Under the pieces are notes generated by a model. That model was given only the letters and a program-made list of their open reading frames with translations. It was not told the DNA's origin and ran no database searches. Positions 45,926 to 63,998 of a stretch of DNA of 64,000 nt are shown piece after piece (the stretch's first letter is position 1; every line of letters starts with the position of its first letter). The position numbers and the translations under genes are program-made. Source of the stretch: Candidatus Omnitrophota bacterium (GTDB lineage: Bacteria > Omnitrophota > Gorgyraeia > 2-02-FULL-51-18). The DNA lies in NCBI GenBank assembly GCA_945877765.1, contig CAMDWQ010000009.1, positions 7,409-71,408 of the forward strand, written 5' to 3'.

Positions 45926-46036
45926 TGCTTCCTTAATATTTTCAACCCTCACTATACTTGACGACGGCACCCCTCTTTTTCGTCATAAAAATATCAAACT
46001 TTTTTAATCGATTAATGCCGCCTAGTGTCGTCGCAA

Positions 46037-48600: not shown

Positions 48601-49607
48601 CGGAAAGCCATGCCTCTTCTCTTAAAAAATCCGGATAAGGAAAAAATAAAGCCCGACATCATCCCCAAAAACATCACTTGGGAATCCACTAATTTTAAAA
48701 CCGCCGCTTTTATCTGAAATACAACTCCCCGCCCCCGCATCCCTTCCAAAAATGGCAGCCAATGAATATAAAATAAGCTGACAAGAATAAACGCCGCCCC
48801 CGCCAAGGGCAATGAATGAAAAACCAGAGCACCCAAACCGCAAATAAACGCCCCAGCCGCCCCCGCCATCGCCGCCGTCTGACCCAGTGACGCGTGAGAA
48901 AAGCTCCTTTTCTTACAAATCTGCCCAAATCCCCCATAGCGTACAAACATCAGCGAAAATAAAAACGGAATGACGAAATCATTTTTTAAAAGGCTTCTCA
49001 TCGTGTACTTTTTTAAATGATCCACTTCCAGTGTGTGGTCCAGGATCACTTTTTTATCACGTCGGGCAAACCGAATCCCCGCCTCAGAGTCACTCACCAG
49101 ACTCCCAAAAGGCTGGGTGATAGGTCTAAAAAAAATCATTTCCTCTCTTCGGACAGCCCACAGCGATCCATAGAGAAAAGAGGACTCCGAGGGCTGCTTC
49201 AAAAAAACATGTCGCATGTAGAAATTTTTGTAATCCGAAAAAAAGGAGCCTGTGGGTTTGTCCGAGGAAAGGATTCCGGTCAAAGCATGAACCGCAGGGT
49301 CCTGAAAATTTCTTAGAATTTTTTCAAAAGTATCGGGGCGCACACACACATCCGCATCAACAAAAACTAAAATGGGATACCGCGCGGCCCTCGCCCCCGC
49401 AAATCGCGGCTCCATGGGTCCTGAGCGCAGCGCCACGGGAATAATTTGACAGGGAAAACCCGCGGCGATTTCACGCGTTGCATCCGTCGAAGCATCATCG
49501 ACAACTAGGACTTCCCCCGGAGCGGCCGAGGAAGCAAAGATTGCCTCAAGACTTGCTTTCATTGTCCCCTGCATATTTCGGGCTGGGATGATGACTGAAA
49601 AACTCAT
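48597..49607 (-). CDS. family-2 glycosyltransferase with C-terminal TM helices
   Basis: FSVIIPARNMQGTMKASLEAIFASSAAPGEVLVVDDASTDAT, a DAD motif and about 4 C-terminal TM helices. Confidence 0.8.
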   Translation of the reverse strand: MSFSVIIPARNMQGTMKASLEAIFASSAAPGEVLVVDDASTDATREIAAGFPCQIIPVALRSGPMEPRFAGARAARYPILVFVDADVCVRPDTFEKILRNFQDPAVHALTGILSSDKPTGSFFSDYKNFYMRHVFLKQPSESSFLYGSLWAVRREEMIFFRPITQPFGSLVSDSEAGIRFARRDKKVILDHTLEVDHLKKYTMRSLLKNDFVIPFLFSLMFVRYGGFGQICKKRSFSHASLGQTAAMAGAAGAFICGLGALVFHSLPLAGAAFILVSLFYIHWLPFLEGMRGRGVVFQIKAAVLKLVDSQVMFLGMMSGFIFSLSGFFKRRGMAFR

Positions 49608-51022
49608 GCGCTTTCCGCCGTCCATTCTTCCAGGTGCGCCTTTTCGGTATTGACGCTCCAGACATCCTGCGGATTTTTCCCCATATAATTACGTGCCGCA
49701 TATAAACCAGTCAAAATCGCGTGATCGCTGTTGTCATAGCGAAAAAGCCCCTCGCGGCCCATGAGACTTAAGTTTTCGATGTTCTCCACAAAATTGCGGA
49801 TGGTGTTTAGATGTTTTTGGTACTCAGGGCTGTAAACCGGATAGACGTTGGCAATTTTTACCACAAATCCTTTGACGTACCGCGCGGGGGCAACCAGCCC
49901 CATCTCTTCAAGTTCCATCAGAGCCAATTGAATCATATCCTCATTTGAAAAATTCCAAAGGCCCTCGCCTTCATTCACAAAATATTCGACCCCCAGCGTC
50001 GTCCAGTCGGGGTTTGAGACCATCTCCATGCTCCAATTTTTATAATTTTGAATGCGGCCGGCCCTGATGCCGGGAGAATGCACGTAAATCCAGTTGTCCG
50101 GGAAAATATTTTTTTGGTCAAAAATGAGATTCACGACCATGAAACTGCGAAATTTGAGTTGACGCGAAGCTTCGAGCACTTCTGGGGGAGGCAGCGGCTT
50201 CATTTTTTGAATTAAAAGGGTGATGGGGATGCTTGAAAAAAGATGACTGACGGGATTGACGCGCAATTCCCCGCCTGGGCCCGCGGCGGTCACCTCCGTG
50301 ATCCGGTTGCCTTCCCGGCGAATCTCCTCGGCGCGGCAATTCATGAGAAATTCGGTGCCGCTTTCTTCACATAAGTTTTTCCACCGGTCGCAAAAAAGTC
50401 CGGGACCTAGCCGCGGATACAGAAATTCTTCGCTGAGAGTTTTGGGGGTGGGGCCGAAACTGCCAAAAGCTTTAAGAACCGCTTTCCCCAAAGAGAGACT
50501 TTGAATTCTCTGCACGGCCCAATCACTGGAAAGCTCACGGCAGGGAATCCCCCACACCTTTTCGGTATAGGTTTTAAAAAAAATCTCATACAGTCTTTTA
50601 CCAAAGCGGCGAGTCATCCACCCTTCGAAATGGCTGTCATCCCCAGCCTTTGACCACCGGGAGAATAAATAACTGGCTAGACAGCGGACGCTCTCGGTAA
50701 ATCCTAACGTTGTCGTGGCATTTAAAAGATTGAGCGGGTAATTAAAAAACCGGTCGCGGTAATAGATCCGTGATTTACGCTTAACCAGCAAAAGATCCGG
50801 CCCCAGAATACGGCGCCAGAGCTCGTTGACTTCACGGCTTTTGGAAATAAAACGATGACCGCCGATATCAAACAACGAGCCTTCAAATTCAAGCGTGCGG
50901 CACAACCCACCCGCCTGCTCGTTTTTGTCCATTACCAGGGGTTGGATGCCGTTGGCACAAAGTTCGTGAGCACAGGCCAACCCTGCCGGACCTGCACCTA
51001 AGATTAAAGGATTGGATTTCAA
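49604..51022 (-). CDS. FAD/NAD(P)-binding oxidoreductase (amine-oxidase/phytoene-desaturase-like fold)
   Basis: N-terminal dinucleotide motif ILGAGPAGLACAHEL...VMDKNEQAGGLCRT in a 472-aa protein. Confidence 0.7.
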   Translation of the reverse strand: MKSNPLILGAGPAGLACAHELCANGIQPLVMDKNEQAGGLCRTLEFEGSLFDIGGHRFISKSREVNELWRRILGPDLLLVKRKSRIYYRDRFFNYPLNLLNATTTLGFTESVRCLASYLFSRWSKAGDDSHFEGWMTRRFGKRLYEIFFKTYTEKVWGIPCRELSSDWAVQRIQSLSLGKAVLKAFGSFGPTPKTLSEEFLYPRLGPGLFCDRWKNLCEESGTEFLMNCRAEEIRREGNRITEVTAAGPGGELRVNPVSHLFSSIPITLLIQKMKPLPPPEVLEASRQLKFRSFMVVNLIFDQKNIFPDNWIYVHSPGIRAGRIQNYKNWSMEMVSNPDWTTLGVEYFVNEGEGLWNFSNEDMIQLALMELEEMGLVAPARYVKGFVVKIANVYPVYSPEYQKHLNTIRNFVENIENLSLMGREGLFRYDNSDHAILTGLYAARNYMGKNPQDVWSVNTEKAHLEEWTAESA

Positions 51023-51089: not shown

Positions 51090-54000
51090 TTAGGCGGCTT
51101 GCTCGGCCATGCGGGCGGTCATGTTGTAGGCACTGACGATATTAGCCACATTCAAGCAGTGAATGGCCAGTCGTTGGACGATGTCGGGGGTGAGTCCCAC
51201 GCCTTGCACGAAATTCAAGAATTCGACTGGGGCCGCGGCGGAGACGTCAGACCCCAGGGCCTGGAAAATTTCTCTTAACCGTTGCTGGTTACGTGGATGC
51301 TTTATTCCCTCTTTTCCTATTTCCGCTTCCGCGATTAATCCATGAATCAAAGCATCGAAATTGAGAAAACCTCTTTGGGTGGGGACCTGAATAATCAGAT
51401 GGAGCCTGTCTTGGCTAAGAATACGAATATTTTTAGGGTCCATCGCCTCCAACGAAGCGCTCTTCATCGATTTAATATTTGATGGAGCTTTTTTCAAAAT
51501 AAATGTCTGTGAAGGATACAGCGCCTCTGCGCGGTCCATAATTTTTTTCCTATTTTTTGGCGTGATTCCAACGATCTGAAAATAGACGTTGAATTTAGTT
51601 GCCTTGTGCATGGCGTTCACGAGCGCGTGGGTAAAAAGCTCATCCGTGGGTAATTTTTTTTGACTCATAAGTCCTTTGAGATTGATAATCAAAAATTTAG
51701 ACTCAGGCGTGATTAGAGATTCGGTGAGACTCCGGACTTTGTTGGTTTGCTCGGCGAGTTTGTTCTTTAGCTCCAGCTGAGAAAGAAGCTCGTCTTGGGA
51801 GAGCATCAACGTCGCGTCTATATTTTGACCTTTACGATTTCTTGTGATGATGGCTTTGTAATTCCTCAAGACAACCTCCATAGAGTCTTCAAAATAAAGA
51901 CGGAGAATCTTGGCATCATGGTCCAAAGTGAATCGCAGGGTCTGGTCTCCTATCACGAGGCTTCCTTCCACAAAATCACGGCGAGCACTAATAATGGCTT
52001 GGGCGGCGAAAACGAGCCTGTCGTGACGTTCAATGGTGCCGTTGGCATAAATGGTTGGTGCGAATTGCATGGTCGCCTTTAGCGCCCCCAAATGACGGGT
52101 AGGAGCTTCGGATGCCAACCGTGCCGCGTCTCGATATTCAACATACGATGATGTGCCTATTCCCCTGCCTTCAAATGTTAAAGGTATGCTGTGATATTCC
52201 CAAAATGAGAAATCCTTTACCTCTTTATTTACAAACGTGCCACGGGGATGATACTCCTCTATTTCTGGAAAAGCGGTATCTAGGACTTCCATCTTCTGCA
52301 AATGTCTCTCCTGGCGGTTGAACTGAATTCTGATGACTATCGGGAGTCTATAATTCCTCTTATTCCCATGGTCTAAAGCATTTCTTAACATCTCTTTGAG
52401 GATATAAGTTGCCCCGAAAGCGGAGTGGTCACCCGGGTTTTCTTTTATCAAAATATCTTCTATTGCCCTTGCAAGATAATAGAAGCGCGAAGACTCCGCA
52501 TCGTGCCCACTAAGCCTAGAGCGATCTTCTATGTGAGAAAGATCAATCCATAGCGGCTGCTCATTTTTAATGGCATCACTTAAAGCCTCTTTATCGACCG
52601 GCGATGACAGATCTATTTTTATTAATTTCGTATTTCTTGCCACATATTCTAATAGTGCCTTAGAGGACGTCTGTTCTTCCCTCTTTTTTTTGTCATACTC
52701 CACTAGCCTTGTTTGAATACTAAAATTACTTTTTGTCAAAAGTTTATCCCGCACGATGATTGGAAGCTGTACGCTGTCATCAGGCACTACAAAACGTAGA
52801 TTAACCTTACCCCCTTCAATCTTCGTAAAAAGCATTGTGATTTGTTCTAAAATAGGGGTCTTTCCCCGGATTGCGATTGTATCTTTTGGGGTGGGGTGAT
52901 TTTCAAGAAGTATCCGTGAAACTTTATTCCAATCAGGACTTTCTGGTCCATTGGAAGTCTGAACCACAATGTAATTACCAGCCGCATTGATCTTGTCCAC
53001 ACGGACCTGCACCAAGTTGTGACTTTCTTGATCATAGACCCATATTAACTCGCCTTCATTGGCAGGCATCCAAATCGGTGTGGTTGCCAACCGGGCACCA
53101 TTCGGATCCCCGCTGAGGCTTTGCTCATCGGTTGCTGCAACACGTGACCCTTGGCCTGCGGGGCTCTCTCGGGATAGATGTTCTAGCGCAACAGCGACGT
53201 CGTTCGTCACAACAACAGCTGCTGTTGGGTATAACTTAAGAAAGTTTTTAAGTAATGTTGCTCTTTCGTCGTCATCCGTAATTCGGTTGATCCTAGCCAA
53301 CTCTTGATTAGCTGCGGAAGAAACATCTGCCAAATCAGGGTAGCTAGGATACAGATCAATGCTGGTGATCGTACCTCCCAAATTTAGAAGTGTGGGCAAT
53401 AGCGGTGAATTTCTTCCTATGGATCCAACCTGAGCAGTTGACTTGCTAAGATTCGCAGATAGAGCCGCCTTTAATGCGTAGTGATACAACATTTTAAACA
53501 ATGCGTGTCCTTTATAATCATCCGATCTTGCTAGTGAGGCATTGCCCAATATTCTCTGCTGTTCATCCATAATGATTATTATCCCCACAAAATATGCTAT
53601 CAACTTTCCTTTATCATCACGAATCACAAAACTAATAGAACTAGGCCTACTAGCCAATTCTGCAATGCGTAAGGGTTCCATTCCCGTCGGCGGAAGACTC
53701 TGGATTTCTTCTGCTTTGAGAATATTTTTTCCCCCTACTCTCTCTAGGACCAAATCATGCTTTTCTCCATCTTTTACTATGCTAAATCGGTGAGGGAGTA
53801 GCCCTGTGAATGCATTGTCTATCAGAGATTGATCGTTCTGGAAACATATCATCTCAATCTCATTGACGTATTTCCTGAATTTATCACCGTAACCTGCATA
53901 CCTATCGTTATCTGCATACTTATAAAGAGCATCATTATCCGCTAAAAACCTTTCCATAATATTCAAGGCTGCATCTACATTCGTATTACCGATAGGGTAT

Positions 54001-57000
54001 CTAGCCACCAGACGGGTTGAAGAGCTACGATCAGGCAGAGCCATGATATTTCTCTGAATACTTAGATCAGCTATAACCCCATTGTCTTGGCTAATAAATA
54101 AACTCACCCCAAGATTTCTTTTAATTTTGCGTGCTATGGATACTATTCTTCCCGCCGGGTTCATGTCTGATATAGATTGATGATCGAAATTAACCAATCT
54201 GGCTGTTTCTTCCTCTGAGATTGCCAACCGCGCGCCGACCAAATCGTGTTGAGCGTCTTCCCCGTTTGTCCGAATCTTTTTGAGACTGGTCAGAAACAAA
54301 AATCTCTTCTCTGGTGGGATCGTACGCATCACTGATTCTGCGATAGACAACACTCTGGCTCGATAGTCACTATCCATGTCATTGAGCGCTAACAAAAGAC
54401 TATCCAAAACCACGGGTGTCCGATATTTAGCCAAATCATGAAGGCGTTGCCTCACCAATTCGGTCACGTGCAATTCATCCGGCCCGTGAGCTAATTCCTT
54501 TAATAGGTACAGCAATTCCCGTGGCTCAACATTCGATCTGAGCGAGTTGGACAGCCGCATCGACCGTGGTAATACTTGAATTAGCTGATAGTCTTCCAGG
54601 CTCCGGCCATTGGGGCTAGTTCGCATGCTTGAGTCGATTGTCCTTTGATTTATAAAAAAATCCTTGTTTTGGCCAAAGCCATAATTAGACTCATCCGCAT
54701 GGATCGTTTGCCAGGCTAGCAGGTATCCGCCCGTAAGAGGAATACTCTCATTCACCATTCGAAGCCTATCCCTCGTATCTTTCACCGGTCCCATGTCAGG
54801 CACGATCACCAGAGACGGCCTAGTCTCTTCCGAAGCATAAGACAGACCTCCGGGCTTGAGAAAATCAACAACCTCCACCGAAAACTGGGCCGGTGGAATT
54901 CCAAGCTCGACAGCCGCCCGATCAAGAAGTGCGGCCTTTTCCCGCTCCTCTGGAAGCAAAAGAAATCTTATGCTCTTTTCCGAAAGCGCAAGACCCAAAG
55001 CCAGTAAGCCAGCACCCTTGCCGCCGCCAAGAATTAGCACTTCTTTCGTTGTTGCTTCTGGTAATTTGAGAATAGTTTCCAATGCTTCTCCTCTTGAAAA
55101 GTTGGCATCGTCATCAAATTCGAATATTTCTAATTTGTCCACCCCAACCACTTTCCGAATTTTTTCAATATATTCTTTGCCAATCACATCTATAGGCTTC
55201 ATCACTTCTGCGACTTTTTTTAGATACTCAGCCATCATTGATTCACGTAATTCGTTGAGTCTCGCATCAAGACTTTCAATCCTCTGGACTATTTTTTTAG
55301 CTTTTGTGAGCACTTCAGCTTCATTTTGATATCTTTCAAGCTCAGGGATAGAATTTGCAATTTGAACTCCCTCTTCACGTGCCGCCGTAACCTGCTGGCC
55401 AAAAAGCAAAATATTTTGATTGGATACGTCACGAAGAGAGATCTGCTGCCAGCTTGAAAGATTACGTAACGCATCATTTTGTGAGGAAGTCATTCTTTCT
55501 AGATGACGGCTTGTAAGATGACTCACGAGCATGATGACTTCTGCTTTTACATCCTCCCATTGGGCTGTTTTAAACCAGTAAGCACGGCCAACTTTATAAT
55601 CTAAATGCCACTCAATCGTATCTAATAAATAAGCAAGAAAAACACTTGCTCTTAATGGAACTTCAAGCTCGTGGTTGACCGGTAATCCTCTGTCTTCAAC
55701 TGGAATTAAATAGTCAGCGTTCTTGACGGCAATAAAGTCACCGAATGCCGTTGGTTCATTCGCATAATAACGAATGGAAAAACCATTTCTCATAAAAGGA
55801 TCTGGGATTGACGTAGAAGTAACATAAGCGCCTTCAGGCTTAAGCATTTGCTTAATTGAGGCTACCCATATATCTAAAATCAAAAATTTCATCTCAACTA
55901 AAGGCAGTCCCGCGAAAGAAGGCAAGGTTTCATCTATAACACTATTGGACATAATCAAATCAAACGATCCAGTCATATCACTTAGCGAGGATTGAATAAA
56001 ATTTACTTTTAAGATAAGTGCTTTTTTTAAATCATCGGCACCCGCCCAAACTGAAAGTTCATTTCTCATGCCTTCAAACATCCCATCAGACAGGTCGATC
56101 ACCGTCAATGATTGCATCTTCGGTAATGCGATCAATATAGAAATGATTTCTTTAGCATTTTTACCAGGTCCTATAAGAAGAAGATCTCCCGTTTGGATAG
56201 GATGACGATAGGGCTCCTTAAGATCCGAAAGGAGGTTGGTAATCTGAAGCGCAAATGTATTTTCAAGGCTTTCTTCTTCCGCCAACCGCGCGCCACCCTT
56301 ATTCCGAATACTGGCTTGCTCACTCGACAAATCAAGATCCGCGCGAACAAAAAATTTATCGACAAGTGCTTCTACGACTAAATTTTCAGATTCAGAAAAC
56401 ACACCCCACTGGCTTCCACCAACAAAAGACTGTAAGAAAGGAAGTGATTTTGGAAACCAGACCGTTGCCTCTCCTGATGGGCTAACGATCATCTCAGGTG
56501 CTCCGCTATAGGAAATCTCTGTTATATCAACGGTTGATGGGTAAAGATTTCCATTGGGGTGAAAATGCATCCCAAATACCAACGGGTTATTCTTGGCCGG
56601 TTCGAAGAGGCAACCAATAAAATCACTTTCACTTCTAATCACCGTGCCCTTCCACTCGCCTCTTAGATTGAAATAAAAGTTGGTTTGAGCGGATGTTGCT
56701 GTTTCCGTTTCATCAACCATATCCAAAGCCCACGATTGTGCATTGAAATAAAATGAGCTTCTTCGCTCCAGAGGAAGGTGATTCACAGCATCACCAAGTC
56801 CGTAATGCCTAAACAAATCTCCGGGTGTGGTTTCGATCCCTGGGTTTTCAGGTATTAGATCTAATCCAAAAAATTGCTCCTGAGAGATACTGATCTTTTC
56901 TAACATAGTAGGTATTGAGTATTTCATTATGAGCTCATCTCTATAATTCTTAAAATATCCATTACGAAGATTGAAAGTAAAAATACGCGCACTCTTGTCA

Positions 57001-60000
57001 TCAAGACTCAATCGTGCTTTATCATCTATCCTATAGATCTCATACAAAGAATTAAAACTCAGAAAGCTGAGTTGTCTCCGCTGGGCATTAATAGCGTCAA
57101 TAATGGGGGTATGACGAAGAATAAGTTCTCTTAATCTGTTAACCTTCTCTTGCGAATCACTTATCAACAAAACTGACTCTGTCTCTTCTGTGTCGATTGG
57201 AATCGCAGAGGCCAGCCGGGCGCCTATATCACCGGACACAGTTGAGTGGAGACCTGATTCGGCATCGCTGTCTTTTTTCCTGAGGATCTCATAAATCACC
57301 CAGTCTTGATAATTTCTAAAAGAGATACGCTCTCTTTGGTGAACCTCAAAACCGCCAAATGCTTGGGTCAGTGACTCTAAGGTAGGGATGGCATACTCAA
57401 TGAATTTGAAATCGGTTAGAACCTCTTCATGAGAAGTATCCAGCGTCGTAATAATAATCCGTCCATTTTTAGCCAAGTGCCCAAGGATGTTTGGGATCAA
57501 TTTATCCGGATTCATGTGTCCATAAGAATCTGCAAGCAGAATAACGTCAAACGGATCCCCTAAATCAAAGGGATCTTCGGCGCTCTGCTGTAGGACGGGG
57601 ACGCGTCTGATTTGCGTAAAAAGCGCTTGCCGCCTATTCAGCTCGATTGCATGCACCACATGCCCTGGCGGCTCTTCCATCAATTCTTTTTCGATAATGC
57701 CGGGGCCGGATCCTATGGATAATATTCTGAGTTTTTTATTCTGCCCTGCAGTGATAATCGCCTTCAGCTTATCTCGATAGGATCTGTCTATGACCGATGG
57801 ACTAATTGCATCCCTATTGAAGAATGCTTTTCCATCAGAATTATACCGATTATATAATTCATTTTTGTTTGACGGTGATTCCGCCAACCGCGCGGCGACC
57901 TGATCCGTCAGCGCTTTCTGAGCCTCCAACACCCGGCGCAGCGTTTCCTTTAAATCAGGATTCATAGCGTCCGAGATCTGAGGGCTAAACATCCCCAACA
58001 CTCCCACTCGCTTGCCTTCGGAGTCATAGAAACGCAGTTTGGCAGTATCTACGATTATCGGCTTATCTCCGCTCTCGTTCCGCTCCGGTTTAAGGAGAGG
58101 TTCGCCACGTTCTTTTTGCAAAGCTTCCAAATCAACATCTGTGTATTGATTGGCTAGATCCAGTGGATTTTTTTCAACATAAGTTTTCCCGACCCAATCT
58201 TTTTTATCGCCATTGGTGCCATCCGACCTTCTCATCGCATCAAGAAAAGCCTGATTGATGTAAATAATGACTTGGCTTGAGGGATCCGCGAGTTCGTCAT
58301 AATAGGTGACGAAAACAGGGTGAGCTGCATCGTCAAATTGTTTGAAATCTGCTTTAAGCGGTGTCCCAAGCACGGGCTCCTTTTCTTTTTCTTTAATCCT
58401 CCTGAGAATATTAGCTTGATCCGTCTGACGCAACAACGCCTGCAGTTTCGGAATCCTATTCTTCCAAGCCACTGACCTCAGAAATGACGGCATATCCGAG
58501 TGAAAAAGACTTAACATCGCCTCGTAAATATACGGATCGCCCACCGTATACTCCGCGGCAAAATAGTTTCTAATGAACCCTCCGGGACTTTGTTCTCTCG
58601 AGTCCGCATCACCAAATTCATCAATTTTTTGGGCCAGAACATTCAATAATGGGGCCGGTGGGAAATCTATCGGTAGGATGACTGCAGATTCACCCGCAGC
58701 AGAGGCTTGGAAGGTTAGCTCGATGAAATCTCCAACGGTCTGCTGGTAATGAACAGATTTTGCTTGGACATCTTTTCTCTGTTTAAGAATTTTTAGAAAA
58801 GCTTCAATAAACGAGGCTCTGGTATCTAAATCATCATCTCGCAAGATTACATCTATATCTCTAGAGGCTCTGCTGACAGAGGGCGCATTGGCGATCCACT
58901 TCCACTCTCCTGTGTCATCCTTGCCGAACCCGCGCTCTTCCATATGGGCATACCCGGTACGCAAATATCTGGCACTTCCTCCGATCCGTGCGTGCTTATC
59001 AGCTTGTTGGATCAACTGCTCAAGAAGGCGTAGATTAATTTCCCTATTTTCGGGATCAAAAAGCCGCTCGTCCGTAGGTGAAAATGTTTCGCTTGCAGGC
59101 TTTCCGGATCGGCCGAAGGTGGGAGCGGTAGAGGCCAACCGCGCGGCGGAAGCACTAGAATTAAGATCTATCCCATGAATGGAAAATGTGGCTGTTGAAT
59201 TTGCGGCGTCTTCTTTGACGGTAATCGCACGGCCTAGGGCATTGGCACTGGTAGAAATTGGTGAATTGTTGACAAGGTCGACAACGGGTTTCTGCCGCTG
59301 GAACCATGGTTGATGCCAAGGACTAGTCACATCGACATTCAAAAGTCCCTGATCATTGGAATGAAATCGAAGTTGTATTCGTTCCTTTTTGCTCGAATGA
59401 CCAAGCGCAGCAGCCAAAAGCAACTCCAGCATTGTTTTTAGTTGCTTGAATTGACTTGGCTGACCATTGATGAGCATTGACTCCATCCCACCGTAGTCAA
59501 TGTCAATACGCCCCCGGTCTATTGGCTTAAGTCTTAAATCATCCTCAATTCTTGCAATTAGGCTAGCAAGCGTGATGGGCGAGCGCAGCTTCGATCTAAG
59601 CTCATTCAAGATAGGTTTATTTTTTTTATTTCTGATGGTTTTTAAAAAAAGTTTTATTTTTTTCTCGGACCTTGCCTTTTTAAAAATTTCCTCTATTTTT
59701 TTTAATTCAGTTGACGTTGGATGATCAAATATTTCTTCGTAAAGCGGCATAGCGTCTTGAATATTATTCGCTAAGCCCGCCGCTTCTCCGGTCAATTGAT
59801 CGATATAAAATTCAAATGGCGTCAAATAACTGTCCTTTTGCACATCCACCTCTTGGGTGGGGTATATAAATCCGTCATCAATAATCCGAATATTTTTTAA
59901 ATCAACGCGCCGCCCATCGTACACCCCGGAATTGATCAAGTGCGGGTCCGCATCAAGAAACCCTTTTTCCATCAACGATCTCTGGTGTTGGCCAAAGAGA

Positions 60001-63000
60001 CGGATGTCTTGAGCGCTAATTTTATTTTTAAGAAGATTATTCAAAATACCTACGCTTCTTTGAACAACCACACGTCGTGTGCCTCCGTCCATTTGCCAAT
60101 CCAAATCATAAGAAATGAGCGTTATCTTTTTTTGTCGTAAACTGGCGGCAAGCTCTTTTCTGGATTTGCCATTCAAAGGAAATGAGATGTAAGAGAATCC
60201 CCCGATTTTCCTAAATTCCTCTGCCTTGATGTCCTTCCATTCGATTTTTACCACGAAAGATCTGCCTTTTTCACCTTGAAGAGATTTAGCGGCAAAAACA
60301 ATGTAATCCCCGCCCTGCCCAAGGTAGTTGAGCCCTTCAGGCACTCTGGAAAGAGATACTTTTTTTTGTTTTCTTGGTGCAACAAGAACCTCTCCAAACC
60401 ATCTGCGAAGCATCGCGGTATCTACACCAGCAAGAGCTTTCTGCAGCCCTTCGATGATTGCTTGGGCTTGCCTTGGGTCAGAGGGGGCATTGGCTGGATC
60501 AGACCAACTTACCTCCGCCAACCTCGCCCCGGCGCCCTTTTCATTTCCACCAAACTTTTTAGGAATGGGGACCGAGACCATTCGCCTTTTTTTTGGATCT
60601 TTTCCAACCCTGTAGGTGTGTTCAAAAGATCTTACTGTCGGTTTCTGTCCATCATGATCCACGCGAAGACTATAAATACCTCGGTTTTGGTTGACCGCAC
60701 TGGCATCTAGGACAAACTGCAGGTATTGATTGCCTTTCAAGGATACGTTATTCAGAATTGCGGCCATCGCTGAGGACGTTCTTTTTGGGTTAATGAACAG
60801 GTGTAAATTTTGGGCAGGCACTATTTTGTGTAAAACTCCTGGCAGAACGTCTCCGGAAACCACGATTGGAGAGAGCTTCTTATTTTCTCTTCTTAGTGAT
60901 TTGACAAACTTGCTTAAATGCTCAAAACTTTGCTTTTTCAGCCGCACCATATCTCTAGAAGCACCGTTAAGTTTCATTTTTTTCGGATCTGTTCTGTCTG
61001 ACCACACATCCTCCTGGTACCAATCAGAGCCCTTAACATCTCCTCTTGGGCTATTGGCATGTATCAGCACGATATCGGCTTCATCGTCAGAGGTTGTCTC
61101 AAAACGGACTATTGTCGATAAATGCATCAGCACTTCCCGCAGTTGATTTTGCAGACGCTCCCGTGGTAGCCCTCGATGCATTGATTCGTTTTGAATCAAC
61201 AATTCTAGATCCACTCCTTGATTGTGCTCCTTATTATTATCAGATATGTCCATTTTACCAACAGGTTCATTCCCGCTAACATGCGCCGCCTCATGATCCG
61301 CTAAGACCATATGAACATTTTCAGGAGCTTGGTTCATCAGGTACAAAATAGCCAAATGCGCCCTGAAGCTATTCCAGTAGTTGGCGTCGGTCATACGAAT
61401 GGAGGGGTGCAGAATATCGCCCACGAAAAATATTTTTGCCTTACCCGATAAGATGTCGTCCAAGATTGGGATGATTCTGGCTTTAAGACTCTGCGATTGG
61501 CCATGAATATCCCCGATAAATAGGGAATACTCGGAATCAGCCTGAGAGACACTTCTTAGGGCTTTGCCTTGGTGTTGGGTCACACTTGGAAACTCACCAA
61601 TTTCAATGGCTTCGGCAGTGGTTGCCGCGTCTTTTAAAATTTGAAGGGCTTTTTTAAGATCAAGTGAGGAGTGGCCGTTGGCATCCAATTTTTCAGGCGT
61701 GAGAAGTAGGAGGAGTTCATTTCTTGTTTCATCCCTATCTGCCAACCGAGTCCCGGAAGAACGAGCAGTCAAAATTGCCCTGCTCTTGAGAATGGGCTGT
61801 TCAAGGTCATTCAAGTCGAGCTCATAATCATAGCCAAGGCGGTCGTGAAGAAGGCGCACCATGCGGCCAGCAATCGAGAACCTAGATTTAAGCCATACAA
61901 AATGGTCCCCACGCGCCTTACGCCGGGCCTCGATGGTCTTGTCCGCGTGTACGTAAAGCGTGCGCGCCATGGGACGCAGTGATCGAAAAAGCGGTGCCGA
62001 AGAGGAACCCACCACCACGAAGAACGTATCCCGATTAGCCTCCAAAGAAATAGTGTGGATCCCATTCAATTCGTCATGGAGTGGCGCGGCATCAATCTGG
62101 ATAGTTTTCCATCCGAAATTGGTAAGCCTCTTCATCCGGAAGATTATTTCTCGCACAGTAGACATTTGCATGTCGATATGAATGATAAAGTCTTCAAAAA
62201 AACCTAGCGGCATGTAATAAATACCGGGGAAATTTAAAATAAAAAACTGAAAAAGCGAAAAAATCTGCCACACGAAGCCCTTGTGGTACAACCAGTCCGT
62301 CTCAATGACACGCGCAGGCACAAACTTGACATTCTCTCCTTCTTTGCCAAAATGATCGGCAAGATTCTTGGCAAAGGTCGACTTTCCTGAGCCTGGAACA
62401 CCGTCAATGATCAAGAGCCGGTAAACACCATTCCTAACCTCCTCAGGCGTCGGGCGAAGAGCATCGTAAATAGCCGGATAGGTGTCTGCTACAAACTCGA
62501 ACTTCTCCTGTTGTTTCACACCTTGGAATTGTGAAGCGGTGTTTTCCGCCAGCCGGGCGCCCTCGCTATGTGATTTTAAGGCGATCTGGGCCGCTCTTTC
62601 AATAGCGCCTCTACCCAACCTGGAGTACCGTTCTTGTTTTTCTTCATCTTCAGTTGCAGAAAAAAGAATTCCATATATTTGACCTAAGGCCAACAGAATG
62701 GGTCTCGAATTTTGAGGATCAATTCCGACTGCTTTTTCGTAAGCAGTGATGGCCTCCTCAAAGCGCCCTTGAGCAGCATAAACGTTGCCTAAGACTCCCC
62801 AACCACCGTGTGATAGTGGATTCCATTCCAAGCCGATGTTAAGAAGCATTTCGGCTGAGGCATACACTTTTGCCTCATAATACCGCAAGGCATTTTCAAA
62901 AAAAAGGATATGCGCAAAAGAAGCGCGCTCCACTCTCCAAAAATCTTCAAACAACTCAATAAAATATCCCACATCTTTAAACTTCAAATCATTATCGATG

Positions 63001-63998
63001 ACTTCCGTATGATCTAGAATACCCGCAATGTTGCTTGCCAAAAATGCGGACCCCTTCATATTGTCAGGAATATCTATCCGAGGGTCGTCCAAAACTCTAT
63101 CCATTTGAATCATCGAATCACTTGAACCTTTAAAGACCCCTGTTTGTTCTAATATCGCCCGCAAAGTGCGGTAATGCATCGCACCGCCGATATGAAGCAG
63201 CCGAAGCCAGCTGAGTCCCGGAGGTAACGCCAGAGGATCCGTATGACTGACTATCTGGAAAAGCTTCTGGCCCATCATCTTCCCTTGCACCACATCTCCC
63301 AAGAGAATATGAATCTGCGTCAGATAGCGCGAAACAATGATCGTATTTAGCAGCTCCTCATCCAATCCTATGGCTTTTAAATCCTTGCCGTACCTTTTTT
63401 TAATCCCTTCAATGACCTCTCGGTAGGATGGGTCCGGAGAATAATACAACACGAGCGGTTCGTGAATAGTGGGGCTATCATCAGAGTCCACCCAAAGAAT
63501 TTTATTTTCCTTCAAATCATTTATTTGTGAAGGACTCAGCGACAAACTTTCAAAAAGATCCTCTGCATTCATATCCTGTGCGTCCGGATCCTTATCCCCC
63601 CACCGAGCCATCAGCGGATTCTCTCCGTACAAAAGTATTCTTTCTGTTTTTTGGGACGCTGCTTCAAAATCCACGCCCATAAAATAACTACGCATCCGAT
63701 GCATTGCGTATCGCGTTGCCCTTGAAGCATTGACTCCATACAAGCGAGGCCAATCGCTTTCAGTCGAAAAAGGCATCATTTTATTTGCTTCTAAAAGAAT
63801 TGTTCCCCAGAGCTCATTTTTCTGAGCAACTGCAGACCCGCTCCCATCTTGCGCGAAACGCTTCACTGCTAGAGGGGGCAGCTCAATGCTCGCGGCGAAT
63901 ACACCTTGAAATAAATCGTTTAGTTCCTTATCGGTGAGCGCTCTTAAACCATGATGTTCGCCAACTGCATGATAAACATTGGCGAGAGTAACTCCCAC
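51090..63998 (-). CDS. giant multidomain protein of at least 4302 aa, N-terminus outside the window (reading frame open to the window edge; first in-window codon is GTG)
   Basis: Recognisable modules from the N-terminus: TPR repeats (AITAYEKAVGIDPQN); a P-loop GVPGSGKST; a calcineurin-like phosphoesterase (FIGDIHGQ...FVGDILH...LADHEAAH); a class-I SAM-MTase (ILSIGSGPGII...VILLADSYGHM...NGRIIITT); a second Rossmann/MTase-like domain (LLLIGPGKNAKEI...FDLIMSN...LKPEGAY); a third (VLILGGGKGAGLLAL...LKPGG); a GHKL/RsbW-like N-box (LKEMLRNALDHG); and at least 10 occurrences of the [GA]ARLA[SE] signature. Confidence 0.8.
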   Translation of the reverse strand: MGVTLANVYHAVGEHHGLRALTDKELNDLFQGVFAASIELPPLAVKRFAQDGSGSAVAQKNELWGTILLEANKMMPFSTESDWPRLYGVNASRATRYAMHRMRSYFMGVDFEAASQKTERILLYGENPLMARWGDKDPDAQDMNAEDLFESLSLSPSQINDLKENKILWVDSDDSPTIHEPLVLYYSPDPSYREVIEGIKKRYGKDLKAIGLDEELLNTIIVSRYLTQIHILLGDVVQGKMMGQKLFQIVSHTDPLALPPGLSWLRLLHIGGAMHYRTLRAILEQTGVFKGSSDSMIQMDRVLDDPRIDIPDNMKGSAFLASNIAGILDHTEVIDNDLKFKDVGYFIELFEDFWRVERASFAHILFFENALRYYEAKVYASAEMLLNIGLEWNPLSHGGWGVLGNVYAAQGRFEEAITAYEKAVGIDPQNSRPILLALGQIYGILFSATEDEEKQERYSRLGRGAIERAAQIALKSHSEGARLAENTASQFQGVKQQEKFEFVADTYPAIYDALRPTPEEVRNGVYRLLIIDGVPGSGKSTFAKNLADHFGKEGENVKFVPARVIETDWLYHKGFVWQIFSLFQFFILNFPGIYYMPLGFFEDFIIHIDMQMSTVREIIFRMKRLTNFGWKTIQIDAAPLHDELNGIHTISLEANRDTFFVVVGSSSAPLFRSLRPMARTLYVHADKTIEARRKARGDHFVWLKSRFSIAGRMVRLLHDRLGYDYELDLNDLEQPILKSRAILTARSSGTRLADRDETRNELLLLLTPEKLDANGHSSLDLKKALQILKDAATTAEAIEIGEFPSVTQHQGKALRSVSQADSEYSLFIGDIHGQSQSLKARIIPILDDILSGKAKIFFVGDILHPSIRMTDANYWNSFRAHLAILYLMNQAPENVHMVLADHEAAHVSGNEPVGKMDISDNNKEHNQGVDLELLIQNESMHRGLPRERLQNQLREVLMHLSTIVRFETTSDDEADIVLIHANSPRGDVKGSDWYQEDVWSDRTDPKKMKLNGASRDMVRLKKQSFEHLSKFVKSLRRENKKLSPIVVSGDVLPGVLHKIVPAQNLHLFINPKRTSSAMAAILNNVSLKGNQYLQFVLDASAVNQNRGIYSLRVDHDGQKPTVRSFEHTYRVGKDPKKRRMVSVPIPKKFGGNEKGAGARLAEVSWSDPANAPSDPRQAQAIIEGLQKALAGVDTAMLRRWFGEVLVAPRKQKKVSLSRVPEGLNYLGQGGDYIVFAAKSLQGEKGRSFVVKIEWKDIKAEEFRKIGGFSYISFPLNGKSRKELAASLRQKKITLISYDLDWQMDGGTRRVVVQRSVGILNNLLKNKISAQDIRLFGQHQRSLMEKGFLDADPHLINSGVYDGRRVDLKNIRIIDDGFIYPTQEVDVQKDSYLTPFEFYIDQLTGEAAGLANNIQDAMPLYEEIFDHPTSTELKKIEEIFKKARSEKKIKLFLKTIRNKKNKPILNELRSKLRSPITLASLIARIEDDLRLKPIDRGRIDIDYGGMESMLINGQPSQFKQLKTMLELLLAAALGHSSKKERIQLRFHSNDQGLLNVDVTSPWHQPWFQRQKPVVDLVNNSPISTSANALGRAITVKEDAANSTATFSIHGIDLNSSASAARLASTAPTFGRSGKPASETFSPTDERLFDPENREINLRLLEQLIQQADKHARIGGSARYLRTGYAHMEERGFGKDDTGEWKWIANAPSVSRASRDIDVILRDDDLDTRASFIEAFLKILKQRKDVQAKSVHYQQTVGDFIELTFQASAAGESAVILPIDFPPAPLLNVLAQKIDEFGDADSREQSPGGFIRNYFAAEYTVGDPYIYEAMLSLFHSDMPSFLRSVAWKNRIPKLQALLRQTDQANILRRIKEKEKEPVLGTPLKADFKQFDDAAHPVFVTYYDELADPSSQVIIYINQAFLDAMRRSDGTNGDKKDWVGKTYVEKNPLDLANQYTDVDLEALQKERGEPLLKPERNESGDKPIIVDTAKLRFYDSEGKRVGVLGMFSPQISDAMNPDLKETLRRVLEAQKALTDQVAARLAESPSNKNELYNRYNSDGKAFFNRDAISPSVIDRSYRDKLKAIITAGQNKKLRILSIGSGPGIIEKELMEEPPGHVVHAIELNRRQALFTQIRRVPVLQQSAEDPFDLGDPFDVILLADSYGHMNPDKLIPNILGHLAKNGRIIITTLDTSHEEVLTDFKFIEYAIPTLESLTQAFGGFEVHQRERISFRNYQDWVIYEILRKKDSDAESGLHSTVSGDIGARLASAIPIDTEETESVLLISDSQEKVNRLRELILRHTPIIDAINAQRRQLSFLSFNSLYEIYRIDDKARLSLDDKSARIFTFNLRNGYFKNYRDELIMKYSIPTMLEKISISQEQFFGLDLIPENPGIETTPGDLFRHYGLGDAVNHLPLERRSSFYFNAQSWALDMVDETETATSAQTNFYFNLRGEWKGTVIRSESDFIGCLFEPAKNNPLVFGMHFHPNGNLYPSTVDITEISYSGAPEMIVSPSGEATVWFPKSLPFLQSFVGGSQWGVFSESENLVVEALVDKFFVRADLDLSSEQASIRNKGGARLAEEESLENTFALQITNLLSDLKEPYRHPIQTGDLLLIGPGKNAKEIISILIALPKMQSLTVIDLSDGMFEGMRNELSVWAGADDLKKALILKVNFIQSSLSDMTGSFDLIMSNSVIDETLPSFAGLPLVEMKFLILDIWVASIKQMLKPEGAYVTSTSIPDPFMRNGFSIRYYANEPTAFGDFIAVKNADYLIPVEDRGLPVNHELEVPLRASVFLAYLLDTIEWHLDYKVGRAYWFKTAQWEDVKAEVIMLVSHLTSRHLERMTSSQNDALRNLSSWQQISLRDVSNQNILLFGQQVTAAREEGVQIANSIPELERYQNEAEVLTKAKKIVQRIESLDARLNELRESMMAEYLKKVAEVMKPIDVIGKEYIEKIRKVVGVDKLEIFEFDDDANFSRGEALETILKLPEATTKEVLILGGGKGAGLLALGLALSEKSIRFLLLPEEREKAALLDRAAVELGIPPAQFSVEVVDFLKPGGLSYASEETRPSLVIVPDMGPVKDTRDRLRMVNESIPLTGGYLLAWQTIHADESNYGFGQNKDFFINQRTIDSSMRTSPNGRSLEDYQLIQVLPRSMRLSNSLRSNVEPRELLYLLKELAHGPDELHVTELVRQRLHDLAKYRTPVVLDSLLLALNDMDSDYRARVLSIAESVMRTIPPEKRFLFLTSLKKIRTNGEDAQHDLVGARLAISEEETARLVNFDHQSISDMNPAGRIVSIARKIKRNLGVSLFISQDNGVIADLSIQRNIMALPDRSSSTRLVARYPIGNTNVDAALNIMERFLADNDALYKYADNDRYAGYGDKFRKYVNEIEMICFQNDQSLIDNAFTGLLPHRFSIVKDGEKHDLVLERVGGKNILKAEEIQSLPPTGMEPLRIAELASRPSSISFVIRDDKGKLIAYFVGIIIIMDEQQRILGNASLARSDDYKGHALFKMLYHYALKAALSANLSKSTAQVGSIGRNSPLLPTLLNLGGTITSIDLYPSYPDLADVSSAANQELARINRITDDDERATLLKNFLKLYPTAAVVVTNDVAVALEHLSRESPAGQGSRVAATDEQSLSGDPNGARLATTPIWMPANEGELIWVYDQESHNLVQVRVDKINAAGNYIVVQTSNGPESPDWNKVSRILLENHPTPKDTIAIRGKTPILEQITMLFTKIEGGKVNLRFVVPDDSVQLPIIVRDKLLTKSNFSIQTRLVEYDKKKREEQTSSKALLEYVARNTKLIKIDLSSPVDKEALSDAIKNEQPLWIDLSHIEDRSRLSGHDAESSRFYYLARAIEDILIKENPGDHSAFGATYILKEMLRNALDHGNKRNYRLPIVIRIQFNRQERHLQKMEVLDTAFPEIEEYHPRGTFVNKEVKDFSFWEYHSIPLTFEGRGIGTSSYVEYRDAARLASEAPTRHLGALKATMQFAPTIYANGTIERHDRLVFAAQAIISARRDFVEGSLVIGDQTLRFTLDHDAKILRLYFEDSMEVVLRNYKAIITRNRKGQNIDATLMLSQDELLSQLELKNKLAEQTNKVRSLTESLITPESKFLIINLKGLMSQKKLPTDELFTHALVNAMHKATKFNVYFQIVGITPKNRKKIMDRAEALYPSQTFILKKAPSNIKSMKSASLEAMDPKNIRILSQDRLHLIIQVPTQRGFLNFDALIHGLIAEAEIGKEGIKHPRNQQRLREIFQALGSDVSAAAPVEFLNFVQGVGLTPDIVQRLAIHCLNVANIVSAYNMTARMAEQAA

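What the first reader, a model, noticed from the sequence alone, without database searches (positions are those of the whole stretch)
51090..63998. Giant (>12.9 kb, incomplete) gene encoding a modular protein with kinase-like P-loop, calcineurin-like phosphatase, at least three methyltransferase-like domains, TPR repeats and a GHKL-kinase-like box
A single uninterrupted frame of 4302 codons runs off the window edge. The domain repertoire is atypical for adhesin-type giant proteins and looks like a string of enzymatic modules. These are nucleotide-dependent, phosphoester-hydrolysing, methyl-transferring and possibly Ser/Thr-kinase-like, together with protein-interaction repeats. The gene is immediately upstream of, and co-directional with, an FAD oxidoreductase, two GT2 glycosyltransferases, a small secreted protein and a GHL10 lipoprotein. 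The product may be a giant cell-surface or secreted effector or assembly platform with associated glycan machinery. Giant enzymatic genes are known from some ultra-small or host-dependent bacterial lineages, but this particular module set is not one I recognise.
Basis: partly seen in the sequence, partly recalled or inferred. Interest (0 to 1): 0.85.

Follow-up and report, generated by a model that had tools for sequence, protein, structure and literature searches.

The report
Giant multi-enzyme polyprotein with JAMM protease
A reading frame of more than 4,300 codons in a Verrucomicrobiota chromosome encodes at least eleven unrelated enzyme-like modules separated by ten copies of one five-residue linker (G-A-R-L-A), and one module is a JAMM-type metalloprotease, so it looks like a bacterial polyprotein that cuts itself into separate enzymes, which gives a testable answer to whether and where giant bacterial proteins are cleaved.

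Summary
The ORF is real: 51090-63998 (-), 4302 sense codons, N-terminus beyond the window. Profile searches support TPR, a P-loop, a calcineurin-like phosphatase and two SAM-methyltransferases. The third MTase and the GHKL box rest on short motifs only.

- Ten copies of [GA][AT]RLA (about 0.04-0.3 expected), found nowhere else in six frames, split the protein into 11 mutually unrelated segments of 224-686 aa.

Its only detectable relatives are rare, deeply divergent modules inside other giant proteins, two of them named Omnitrophota. Several of these carry their own recurring linker (RSE[LM]R 10x and 14x, [AS]SPL, SSPV) that brackets the JAMM module. Cysteine is about 14-fold depleted. Most full-length relatives start with Sec-type signal peptides.

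Best reading (about 0.5): an exported polyprotein processed at a private linker motif by its own JAMM module. Cleavage itself is inferred, not shown. I found no description of this arrangement in the literature I could search.

The parts
51090..63998 (-). Giant ORF, 4302 codons plus stop; the N-terminus lies beyond the window edge
62547..62561 (-). Linker motif 1, GARLA (aa 480-484)
61740..61754 (-). Linker motif 2, GTRLA (aa 749-753)
60516..60530 (-). Linker motif 3, GARLA (aa 1157-1161)
59133..59147 (-). Linker motif 4, AARLA (aa 1618-1622)
57882..57896 (-). Linker motif 5, AARLA (aa 2035-2039)
57210..57224 (-). Linker motif 6, GARLA (aa 2259-2263); N-terminal boundary of the JAMM module
56280..56294 (-). 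Linker motif 7, GARLA (aa 2569-2573); C-terminal boundary of the JAMM module
54222..54236 (-). Linker motif 8, GARLA (aa 3255-3259)
53085..53099 (-). Linker motif 9, GARLA (aa 3634-3638)
52113..52127 (-). Linker motif 10, AARLA (aa 3958-3962)
62673..62891 (-). TPR repeats (aa ~370-442) at the end of segment 1
61752..62558 (-). Segment 2 (aa 481-749): P-loop NTPase/kinase-like, Walker A GVPGSGKST at aa 533-541
61035..61523 (-). Calcineurin-like metallophosphoesterase core (aa 826-988) in segment 3
59871..60323 (-). Protein-kinase-like motif series in segment 4 (G-loop LGQGGDYIVF aa 1226, VVK Lys1251, DxxxxN aa 1351-1356, DDG aa 1374-1376). Motif-level evidence only.
   Evidence: no profile hit; AF2 on the single sequence failed
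57390..57785 (-). Class I SAM-methyltransferase (aa 2072-2203) in segment 6
56292..57221 (-). Segment 7 (aa 2260-2569): JAMM/MPN+ metalloprotease module with an N-terminal helical/beta extension; the only such module in the window
56526..56567 (-). JAMM catalytic motif HFHPNGNLYPSTVD (H2478, H2480, S2488, D2491); the matching invariant Glu is E2411 in LPLER
55710..56246 (-). Second SAM-methyltransferase-like module (aa ~2585-2763), shared with P0012, P0015, P0016, P0017 and P0018
53166..53786 (-). Module of unknown function in segment 9 (aa 3405-3611), homologous to P0004 aa 4729-4935, where it is also bracketed by that protein's own motif
52155..52394 (-). GHKL-like N-box (EMLRNALDH) and GRGIG in segment 10; unconfirmed
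49604..51022 (-). Downstream FAD/amine-oxidase-like oxidoreductase, 67 bp after the giant gene's stop; probably co-transcribed

Best explanation
The gene encodes a giant precursor, a polyprotein, made of at least eleven autonomous modules. They include TPR, a P-loop kinase-like module, a metallophosphatase, a protein-kinase-like module, two SAM-methyltransferases, a JAMM metalloprotease and several unknowns. The modules are joined by exposed linkers that all carry the same peptide, [GA][AT]RLA.

The single JAMM/MPN+ module (aa 2260-2569) recognises this private motif. By analogy with how JAMM enzymes hold the extended C-terminal tail of ubiquitin-like substrates, it would cut at or just after the motif and release the modules as separate proteins.

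The precursor is probably exported. Its ATP- and SAM-dependent modules would then act in a compartment that has those cofactors, possibly another cell.

Shown: the ORF, the motif and its statistics, the modularity, the JAMM fold and catalytic residues, and the same architecture with different motifs in distant relatives. Inferred: cleavage itself, the protease-site pairing, the cleavage position, export of this particular protein, and the target.
For: 1. Motif frequency. Ten [GA][AT]RLA occur against about 0.04 in shuffles (0.19 expected for ARLA, 0.29 for [AT]RLA), and none occurs elsewhere in six frames of the 64 kb. Spacing is 224-686 aa.
2. Independent segments. The 11 segments are not paralogous, and no Pfam hit straddles a motif.
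3. Linker character. The 12 residues on each side of the motifs are depleted in order-promoting residues (0.21 against 0.34, resampling P<5e-5). The termini of the segment-7 model have pLDDT below 50.
4. Segment 7 is a JAMM protease.
   - E152, H219, H221, S229 and D232 are the only invariant columns in 13 sequences that are 17-44% identical.
   - AF2 gives pLDDT 85.2 and pTM 0.85.
5. Relatives. An exhaustive HMMER search of 1.84 billion representatives finds 18 relatives of the query (segments 7 and 8). The 13 that match the JAMM module are mostly 1-5 kaa proteins, each with exactly one JAMM module.
6. Private motifs in relatives.
   - P0002 has RSE[LM]R 10 times against 0.01 expected; P0004 has RSELR-like 14 times against 0.04; P0011 has [AS]SPL 6 times against 0.2; P0019 has [AS]SP[VI] 5 times against 0.05.
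   - In the window protein, P0002, P0004, P0011 and P0019 the JAMM module is bracketed on both sides by that protein's own motif. The module starts 1-5 residues after the motif.
   - So the motif belongs to the host protein, not to the module, as cleavage sites match the protease in viral polyproteins.
7. Peptide-level selection. In P0002 and P0004 the motif codons vary freely among synonyms.
8. The motif is absent from the flanks of those giant genes.
9. Export. Cysteine is 0.07% here and 0.03-0.08% in P0002, P0004 and P0013, against 0.96% in the window's other ORFs. Nine full-length relatives begin with signal peptides that have AxA-type sites (read).
Against: - No experiment or proteomic datum shows cleavage.
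- Characterised JAMM enzymes cut after the Gly-Gly tail of a ubiquitin-like domain. No beta-grasp domain or GG precedes the motifs here.
- The relatives were found through the JAMM module, so 'all relatives have JAMM' is circular.
- P0018 has a recurring [DN]AAM motif but no JAMM module.
- P0005, P0007 and P0009 have the JAMM module but no crisp recurring motif.
- The motif regexes for the relatives were written after looking at the sequences.
- Pfam Prok-JAB scores only 12.1 bits against a cutoff of 25, and the A1 profile against PDB gives only sub-threshold JAMM hits (E 0.04-0.7).
- The N-terminus of this protein is unknown, so export is extrapolated.
- In this gene the Arg and Leu codons of the motif are unusually uniform (CGG 9 of 10, TTG 8 of 10). 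A purely peptide-level signal does not predict that.
Confidence: 0.5

Rival explanations
1. The protein stays in one piece as a giant multi-enzyme scaffold. The recurring motif is a conserved hinge or a docking peptide, for example for the protein's own TPR domain, a chaperone or a secretion factor. The JAMM module acts on other substrates, as an isopeptidase or deubiquitinase-like effector.
For: - A TPR domain, a typical binder of short peptides, sits in segment 1.
- Known JAMM enzymes act on ubiquitin-like tails, not on ARLA-like sequences (family knowledge; hit list).
- P0018 has a recurring motif without a JAMM module.
- Multi-enzyme giant proteins of Omnitrophota are described without any evidence of processing.
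Against: - P0002 and P0004 show no TPR hit in Pfam yet have even more motif copies.
- A hinge does not need five fixed residues, nor a different fixed sequence in each protein.
- The motif brackets modules exactly, and the next module begins 1-5 residues later.
Confidence: 0.2
2. The protein is cut at the motifs, but by a different protease: one encoded elsewhere, a periplasmic one, or one belonging to a target cell. The JAMM module is simply one of the released effectors.
For: - P0018 has a motif but no JAMM module.
- MARTX and large clostridial toxins show that interdomain processing after Leu before a small residue is done by a cysteine protease (recalled knowledge), and ARL|A would fit such a site.
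- The N-terminal part of this protein is unseen and could hold another protease.
Against: - No other peptidase domain is detected in the visible 4302 aa.
- Only 3 cysteines exist, and none sits in a recognisable protease context.
- A host or prey protease would not explain why each protein has its own motif.
- Each of the 13 relatives that match the module carries exactly one JAMM module, bracketed by the motif.
Confidence: 0.15
3. The repeat is a nucleotide-level signal: microhomology for shuffling or insertion of module cassettes, an RNA processing site, or internal translation starts at the TTG inside the motif that yield separate proteins without proteolysis.
For: - The motif is the top DNA direct-repeat family in the gene, about 17 nt, GGCGCGCGGTTGGCGGA.
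- Arg is CGG in 9 of 10 copies (background 0.18, P 1.7e-6), and Leu is TTG in 8 of 10 (background 0.24, P 3e-4).
- TTG can serve as a start codon.
Against: - The Gly and Ala wobble positions inside the motif vary.
- In P0002 and P0004 the equivalent motifs use many synonymous codons, including CTC and CTT, which cannot start translation.
- No Shine-Dalgarno-like sequence precedes the TTG.
- The conserved unit is in frame in all ten copies and never occurs in another frame or strand.
Confidence: 0.05
4. The long frame is an assembly chimera or a non-functional relic.
For: The source contig is absent from every collection searched, so no independent assembly could be compared. GC is about 4 points below that of the neighbours.
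Against: - 4302 codons without a stop (P about 1e-114), against 252 and 351 stops in the other frames.
- Profile hits and homologous modules are spread along the whole frame.
- The same in-frame motif occurs from aa 480 to aa 3958.
- There are no long repeats.
Confidence: 0.02

Closest known systems
Multi-enzyme giant proteins of Omnitrophota ('class 1' of Nielsen & Lui 2026, bioRxiv 10.64898/2026.06.07.730766; see also West-Roberts et al. 2023, bioRxiv 10.1101/2023.11.21.568195)
   Same: - A PVC-group bacterium, with one huge ORF tiled by many different enzyme domains.
- The reported co-occurring set (methyltransferase, HATPase, GNAT, HAD) resembles the repertoire here.
- Two JAMM-module relatives are annotated as Candidatus Omnitrophota hypothetical proteins.
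   Different: - Those papers describe no recurring linker motif and no JAB/MPN module.
- West-Roberts et al. state that cleavage points are unknown and propose C39 or S8 peptidases.
- The present protein is from Verrucomicrobiota, is at least 4.3 kaa rather than 10 kaa or more, and shows no TM helices in the visible part.
MARTX and large clostridial toxins (autoprocessing multi-effector toxins)
   Same: - One secreted precursor carries several unrelated effector enzymes joined by unstructured linkers and is cut by a protease domain embedded in the same chain.
- Their cleavage is after Leu before a small residue (recalled knowledge), which resembles ARL|A.
   Different: - Their protease is an InsP6-activated cysteine protease (C80), not a JAMM metalloprotease.
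- They have glycine-rich A/B/C repeats and RTX/T1SS features, none of which is detected here.
- Their sites are loosely defined, not a fixed five-residue motif.
Viral polyproteins (for example picornavirus 3C or alphavirus nsP2 processing)
   Same: Many functional proteins are made as one chain and separated at repeated short sites whose sequence matches the specificity of a protease embedded in the chain. Sites differ between lineages along with the protease.
   Different: - Here the context is cellular and chromosomal: neighbours are RecQ, FadAB and RND efflux genes.
- There is no relative in viral contigs, phages or plasmids.
- The protease class is different.
JAMM/MPN+ peptidases acting on linear fusions or conjugates (PfJAMM1/HvJAMM1, Rpn11, Caldiarchaeum Rpn11-like, CBASS Cap3, BilC)
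   Same: The catalytic signature E...HxHx7Sx2D and the MPN fold. These enzymes cut a peptide or isopeptide bond right after an extended C-terminal tail held in a groove.
   Different: - About 18% sequence identity or less to the best structural hits, and below the Pfam threshold.
- A 150-residue N-terminal extension.
- The module sits inside a giant chain.
- The presumed site is not Gly-Gly after a beta-grasp domain.
Polyvalent proteins of phages and conjugative elements (Iyer et al. 2017, PMC5512222)
   Same: Up to 15 unrelated enzymatic domains in one polypeptide, with embedded peptidases proposed to release them.
   Different: - Those are on mobile elements and use zincin-like MPTase. Their JAB domains are RadC-type and are predicted to act on nucleic acids.
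- No fixed linker motif is described.
- The gene here is chromosomal and has no PHROG or PADLOC affinity.

Membership tests
JAMM/MPN+ metalloprotease (segment 7) | Catalytic signature Glu ... His-x-His-x7-Ser-x2-Asp | tested here: met
   E2411, H2478, H2480, S2488 and D2491 are the only invariant columns among 13 homologues
JAMM/MPN+ metalloprotease (segment 7) | MPN fold | tested here: met
JAMM/MPN+ metalloprotease (segment 7) | Reaches the curated sequence-profile threshold (Pfam Prok-JAB or JAB) | tested here: not met
   Prok-JAB E 0.19, 12.1 bits against a cutoff of 25. The A1 profile against PDB gives only sub-threshold JAMM hits. It is a divergent, unmodelled branch.
JAMM/MPN+ metalloprotease (segment 7) | Substrate is the Gly-Gly tail of a ubiquitin-like beta-grasp domain | tested here: not met
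   The motifs are [GA][AT]RLA. No GG and no detected Ubl domain precedes them. Applies to the presumed substrate only.
JAMM/MPN+ metalloprotease (segment 7) | Zn-dependent peptidase activity | not testable with these tools
   Needs biochemistry
MARTX / large clostridial toxin | C80 cysteine protease domain, glycine-rich repeats, RTX repeats | tested here: not met
   No such Pfam or NCBIfam hits. Only 3 Cys in 4302 aa. The N-terminus is unseen.
Adhesin-type giant protein | Long tandem arrays of Ig-like, cadherin or similar repeats | tested here: not met
   No paralogy between segments. No DNA repeats longer than about 29 nt.
Polyvalent protein of a mobile element | Encoded on a phage, plasmid or conjugative element | tested here: not met
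   Housekeeping neighbours. No phage, plasmid or viral relatives. No significant PHROG hits.
Omnitrophota-type multi-enzyme giant protein | Many distinct enzyme families tile one polypeptide, with none dominating | tested here: met
   TPR, P-loop, Metallophos, two MTases and JAMM, each occurring once or twice. Compare.
Omnitrophota-type multi-enzyme giant protein | Length 10 kaa or more, and a TM helix or signal peptide | tested here: inconclusive
   The ORF is truncated by the window at 4302 aa and the N-terminus is unknown. The source contig was not found in any collection.
Calcineurin-like metallophosphoesterase (segment 3) | Pfam gathering score and the GDxHG / GDxxD-H / GNHE motifs | tested here: met
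   25.6 bits against 21.5. GDIHG at aa 829 and GDILH at aa 860. The third motif is degenerate (ADHE, aa 900).
Class I SAM-methyltransferase (segment 6) | Pfam gathering score | tested here: met
   Methyltransf_23, 43 bits against 27
GHKL ATPase/kinase (segment 10) | N, G1 and G2 boxes, and a profile match | tested here: not met
   An N-box and a G2-like GRGIG are present and G1 is absent. No Pfam, NCBIfam or PDB hit even at E 5-10.

The most novel reading that the evidence does not exclude
This would be a previously undescribed class of bacterial, chromosomally encoded, exported polyproteins in the PVC group (Verrucomicrobiota and Omnitrophota). Ten or more unrelated enzymes are translated as one chain and released by an embedded, highly divergent JAMM metalloprotease. 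The protease cuts at a short recognition motif that is private to each protein and has changed during evolution (GARLA, RSELR, ASPL, SSPV). That is a cellular counterpart of viral polyprotein processing, and the first concrete 'cleavage code' for giant bacterial proteins.
Probability: 0.4. Interest if true: 0.9.

Novelty: new variant of a known kind. Interest (0 to 1): 0.78.

Why it matters
Giant genes of PVC bacteria are a current puzzle. The open question, stated explicitly in the literature, is whether their products work as one chain or are cut, and where.

This gene supplies a candidate protease, a JAMM module with intact catalytic residues. It also supplies ten candidate sites with a fixed sequence, and independent relatives with the same layout but different motifs. 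A peptide-cleavage assay and N-terminomics can test the idea directly.

If it holds:
- The enzymology of JAMM proteases would extend beyond ubiquitin-like tails.
- The motifs would give a rule for splitting giant 'dark' proteins into units for structure prediction.
- Polyprotein expression would be shown to be a cellular strategy, not only a viral one.

The modules themselves are almost all without detectable relatives among billions of proteins, so they are also a source of new enzyme families.

Tried and rejected
**Searches that found nothing or failed**
- The whole-protein homologue search timed out.
- Word-index searches with aa 1-1157, aa 3250-4302 and the JAMM alignment found nothing except a TPR protein.
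- The source contig and close relatives were not found in GTDB species genomes, JGI metagenomes or the gene-position index, so the N-terminus could not be recovered.
- The A1 alignment was too divergent for a locus search. The narrower A3 alignment only re-found P0013.
- The afdb50 fold library was unavailable.
- The literature search found no description of JAMM polyproteins or of these motifs.

**Analyses that gave no usable result**
- AF2 on segment 4 without an alignment failed (pLDDT 34.6), so the protein-kinase-like reading rests on motifs only.
- A GNAT assignment for segment 9, made by eye, was dropped because no PDB or profile support appeared.
- Homology of the C-terminal module with the C-termini of relatives was rejected (hhalign probability 0.2).

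**Hypotheses rejected**
- A defence-system or phage origin: PADLOC and PHROGs gave only generic P-loop, MTase and JAB-motif hits, and there were no phage, plasmid or viral matches.
- Synteny of a giant gene with RecQ in relatives: absent in 80 loci.
- Stand-alone JAMM-module proteins: P0006 and P0010 are fragments, one from a frameshifted nanopore contig and one from a 1-kb contig.
- tRNA genes in the window: none.
Full report
**1. The observation**

The minus-strand frame 51090..63998 is open for 4302 sense codons and ends in TAA. Its first codon lies two bases from the window edge, so the true start is outside the window. With the local composition a stop is expected every 17 codons or so, giving P(no stop) of about 1e-114. 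The other two frames of that strand hold 252 and 351 stops. The gene contains no long DNA repeats that could drive a misassembly.

Its GC content (44.7%) is about 4 points below that of the 7 kb downstream. Downstream and co-directional lie an FAD/amine-oxidase-like gene, two GT2 genes, a small secreted protein and a GHL10 protein. The first follows after 67 bp, with no terminator-like site and with a GGGAG before its start.

The rest of the window is ordinary chromosome: RNase Y, a PilT-like ATPase, a DEAD helicase, an RND efflux pump, FadB/FadA and RecQ. RecQ's best relatives (68% identity and below) are Verrucomicrobiota MAGs.

**2. The domain claims**

- Supported by profiles:
  - TPR, aa 400-442.
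  - A Walker-A P-loop, marginal: KTI12 scores 23.4 against a cutoff of 22 on the isolated segment.
  - A calcineurin-like phosphoesterase: 25.6 against 21.5, with GDIHG, GDILH and ADHE.
  - One SAM-methyltransferase: Methyltransf_23, 43 bits.
- Supported only with homologues: a second methyltransferase-like module (aa ~2585-2763). A profile built with five homologues hits SAM-MTase structures (2pxx, E 2e-4), and PADLOC mad2 matches at 1.3e-5.
- Motif-level only:
  - A third MTase (one GxGxG).
  - The GHKL box: N-box plus GRGIG, no G1 box, no profile hit, no PDB hit.
  - A protein-kinase-like motif series in segment 4: G-loop, VVK, DxxxxN and DDG in the right order and spacing. No profile supports it, and single-sequence AF2 failed (pLDDT 34.6).

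**3.

- The translation contains ten copies of [GA][AT]RLA, at aa 480, 749, 1157, 1618, 2035, 2259, 2569, 3255, 3634 and 3958.
- Composition predicts 0.19 copies of ARLA and 0.29 of [AT]RLA. Shuffles give 0.04 for the five-residue pattern, and none of 2000 shuffles reaches ten.
- The pattern occurs nowhere else in any of the six frames of the 64 kb.
- It cuts the protein into 11 segments of 224-686 aa that are not related to one another (best inter-segment BLASTP E 0.05). No Pfam hit crosses a motif.
- The 12 residues on either side are poor in order-promoting residues (0.21 against 0.34, resampling P<5e-5).
- The repeat finder independently returned the motif as the top direct-repeat family of the gene.

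**4. The JAMM module**

Segment 7 (aa 2260-2569) carries HFHPNGNLYPSTVD, an exact HxHx7Sx2D. Pfam sees it only faintly (Prok-JAB, E 0.19).

An exhaustive HMMER scan of 1.84 billion representative proteins, queried with aa 2240-3270, returned only 18 hits. The 13 that match segment 7 are mostly giant proteins of 1-5 kaa. In the alignment of these 13 modules, which are 17-44% identical to each other, the only invariant columns are E152, H219, H221, S229 and D232. That is the full JAMM/MPN+ catalytic set.

**5. The relatives have the same layout with different motifs**

| Protein | Length (aa) | Recurring motif | Copies | Shuffle mean |
|---|---|---|---|---|
| P0002 | 3676 | RSE[LM]R | 10 | 0.01 |
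| P0004 | 5232 | RSELR-like | 14 | 0.04 |
| P0011 | 5046 | [AS]SPL | 6 | 0.2 |
| P0019 | 1085 | [AS]SP[VI] | 5 | 0.05 |
| P0018 | 2348 | [DN]AAM-like | 5 | 0.05 |

(. The regexes were written post hoc, but unbiased k-mer counts already give P of 1e-10 to 1e-17 for P0002 and P0004.)

- In the window protein, P0002, P0004, P0011 and P0019 the JAMM module is bracketed on both sides by the host protein's own motif. The conserved core starts 1-5 residues after the upstream motif. A spacer of 0-14 residues precedes the downstream one.
- A second shared module (segment 9, matching P0004 aa 4729-4935) is likewise bracketed by RSELR-type motifs in P0004.
- The motif therefore belongs to the host chain, not to the module.
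- In P0002 and P0004 the motif codons are freely synonymous, which is the signature of selection on the peptide. The motif is absent from the flanks of those genes.
- Two relatives are annotated as hypothetical proteins of Candidatus Omnitrophota. Their loci are chromosomal and have unrelated neighbours.
- Nothing similar is found in viral contigs, phages or plasmids.

**6. Export**

- The window protein has 3 Cys in 4302 residues (0.07%), against 0.96% over 26 other ORFs of the window. P0002, P0004 and P0013 are equally depleted, at 0.03-0.08%.
- Nine relatives with intact N-termini begin with a basic stretch, a hydrophobic stretch and an AxA-type site, for example ...DDAWA|QP and ...LPVWA|GE (read).
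- Export of the window protein itself is an extrapolation, because its N-terminus is unseen.
- The P-loop, kinase-like and methyltransferase modules need ATP or SAM. If the chain leaves the cytoplasm they should act where those cofactors exist, possibly in another cell. This step is inference.

**7. Mechanism proposed**

The chain is a polyprotein. The JAMM module binds the exposed linker in an extended conformation, as JAMM enzymes bind the ...LRLRGG tail of ubiquitin-like substrates, and hydrolyses the bond at or just after the motif. This would leave each downstream module with an almost flush N-terminus and each upstream module with a short flexible tail.

The site and the protease specificity have diverged together between lineages, as in viral polyproteins. 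Confidence is about 0.5.

Weak points:
- No cleavage data exist.
- The presumed site is not canonical for JAMM.
- Ascertainment is biased, because the relatives were found through the module.
- P0018 has a motif without a JAMM module.
- P0005, P0007 and P0009 have the module without a crisp motif.

**8. An unexplained detail**

In this gene only, the motif is also uniform at the nucleotide level. Arg is CGG in 9 of 10 copies (background 0.18, P 1.7e-6) and Leu is TTG in 8 of 10 (background 0.24, P 3e-4), while the Gly and Ala wobble bases vary.

Recent spread or gene conversion of linkers, microhomology used in module shuffling, or an RNA-level role are all possible. Internal initiation at TTG is unlikely, since no SD precedes it and relatives use CTC and CTT there.

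**9. Comparison with what is known**

- **Architecture.** The nearest described objects are the multi-enzyme giant proteins of Omnitrophota. The published accounts mention no linker motif and no JAB module, and they state that cleavage points are unknown.
- **Function.** The nearest analogues are MARTX-type autoprocessing multi-effector toxins and viral polyproteins. Membership in MARTX, adhesins and polyvalent proteins was tested and not met.
- **The protease.** It meets the catalytic-motif and fold criteria of JAMM/MPN+ but not the curated sequence threshold or the Gly-Gly substrate rule.
- **Literature.** Searches found no description of this arrangement. That is absence within the library searched, not proof of novelty.

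**10. Verdict**

I rate it a new variant of a known kind (autoprocessing multi-module precursors and multi-enzyme giant proteins), with a substantial chance of being a new class. Interest is 0.78.

Noticed in passing
window 51090-63998, the ten motif sites: The linker motif is also uniform at the nucleotide level: about 17 nt, GGCGCGCGGTTGGCGGA, with Arg as CGG in 9 of 10 copies and Leu as TTG in 8 of 10. This is unlike the freely synonymous motifs of relatives P0002 and P0004. Cause unknown.
   Followed up: partly
window 46261-47397 (-): The GHL10 protein has a signal peptide (…FLFLFLAPAQG|SEV) but no lipobox cysteine, so it is probably secreted or periplasmic rather than a lipoprotein.
   Followed up: partly
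window 47378-47761 (-): The listed 127-aa ORF overlaps the upstream GT2 gene. The likely true start is the Met at 47656, giving a protein of about 91 aa with a clear signal peptide (MKKYLLFLAGFLLLTSFAWA|DEP) and no family match.
   Followed up: partly
window 51090-63998 against 44087-51022: The giant gene has 44.7% GC, against 48.9% in the seven kb downstream and 46.6% for the whole window. This may reflect foreign origin or different constraints.
   Followed up: no
window 51093-51100; C-termini of P0002, P0003, P0004, P0005, P0007 and P0009: These giant proteins all end in two small residues (…EQAA here; ESAA, KTAA, GTAA, LIAA, ALSA, LAFA in the relatives). Yet the C-terminal modules are not detectably homologous to the one here (hhalign probability 0.2). 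This may be a C-terminal signal or degron.
   Followed up: partly
L081 (P0004) aa 3047/3067, 4071/4091, 4699/4719: Three doubled RSELR motifs lie 20 residues apart with a conserved spacer (…GQKS[VI]L…). If both sites are cut, this would release short spacer peptides.
   Followed up: no
P0018 (2348 aa) and P0013 / L085: P0018 and P0013 share an N-terminal domain and a [DN]AAM-type recurring motif, but only P0013 carries the JAMM module. This suggests trans-processing or a different role for the motif.
   Followed up: partly
L087 301-5925: The short JAMM-module hit P0006 sits in a run of nine small same-strand ORFs on a nanopore contig. This is most likely one giant gene broken by frameshift errors, so such genes are probably under-counted in error-prone assemblies.
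   Followed up: no
window 23978-25690 (+) and L081 25529-27499: A PMT_2 (dolichyl-phosphate-mannose-type) glycosyltransferase lies in this window and also near the P0004 giant gene, and a GT2 lies next to P0002. Coincidence was not excluded.
   Followed up: no
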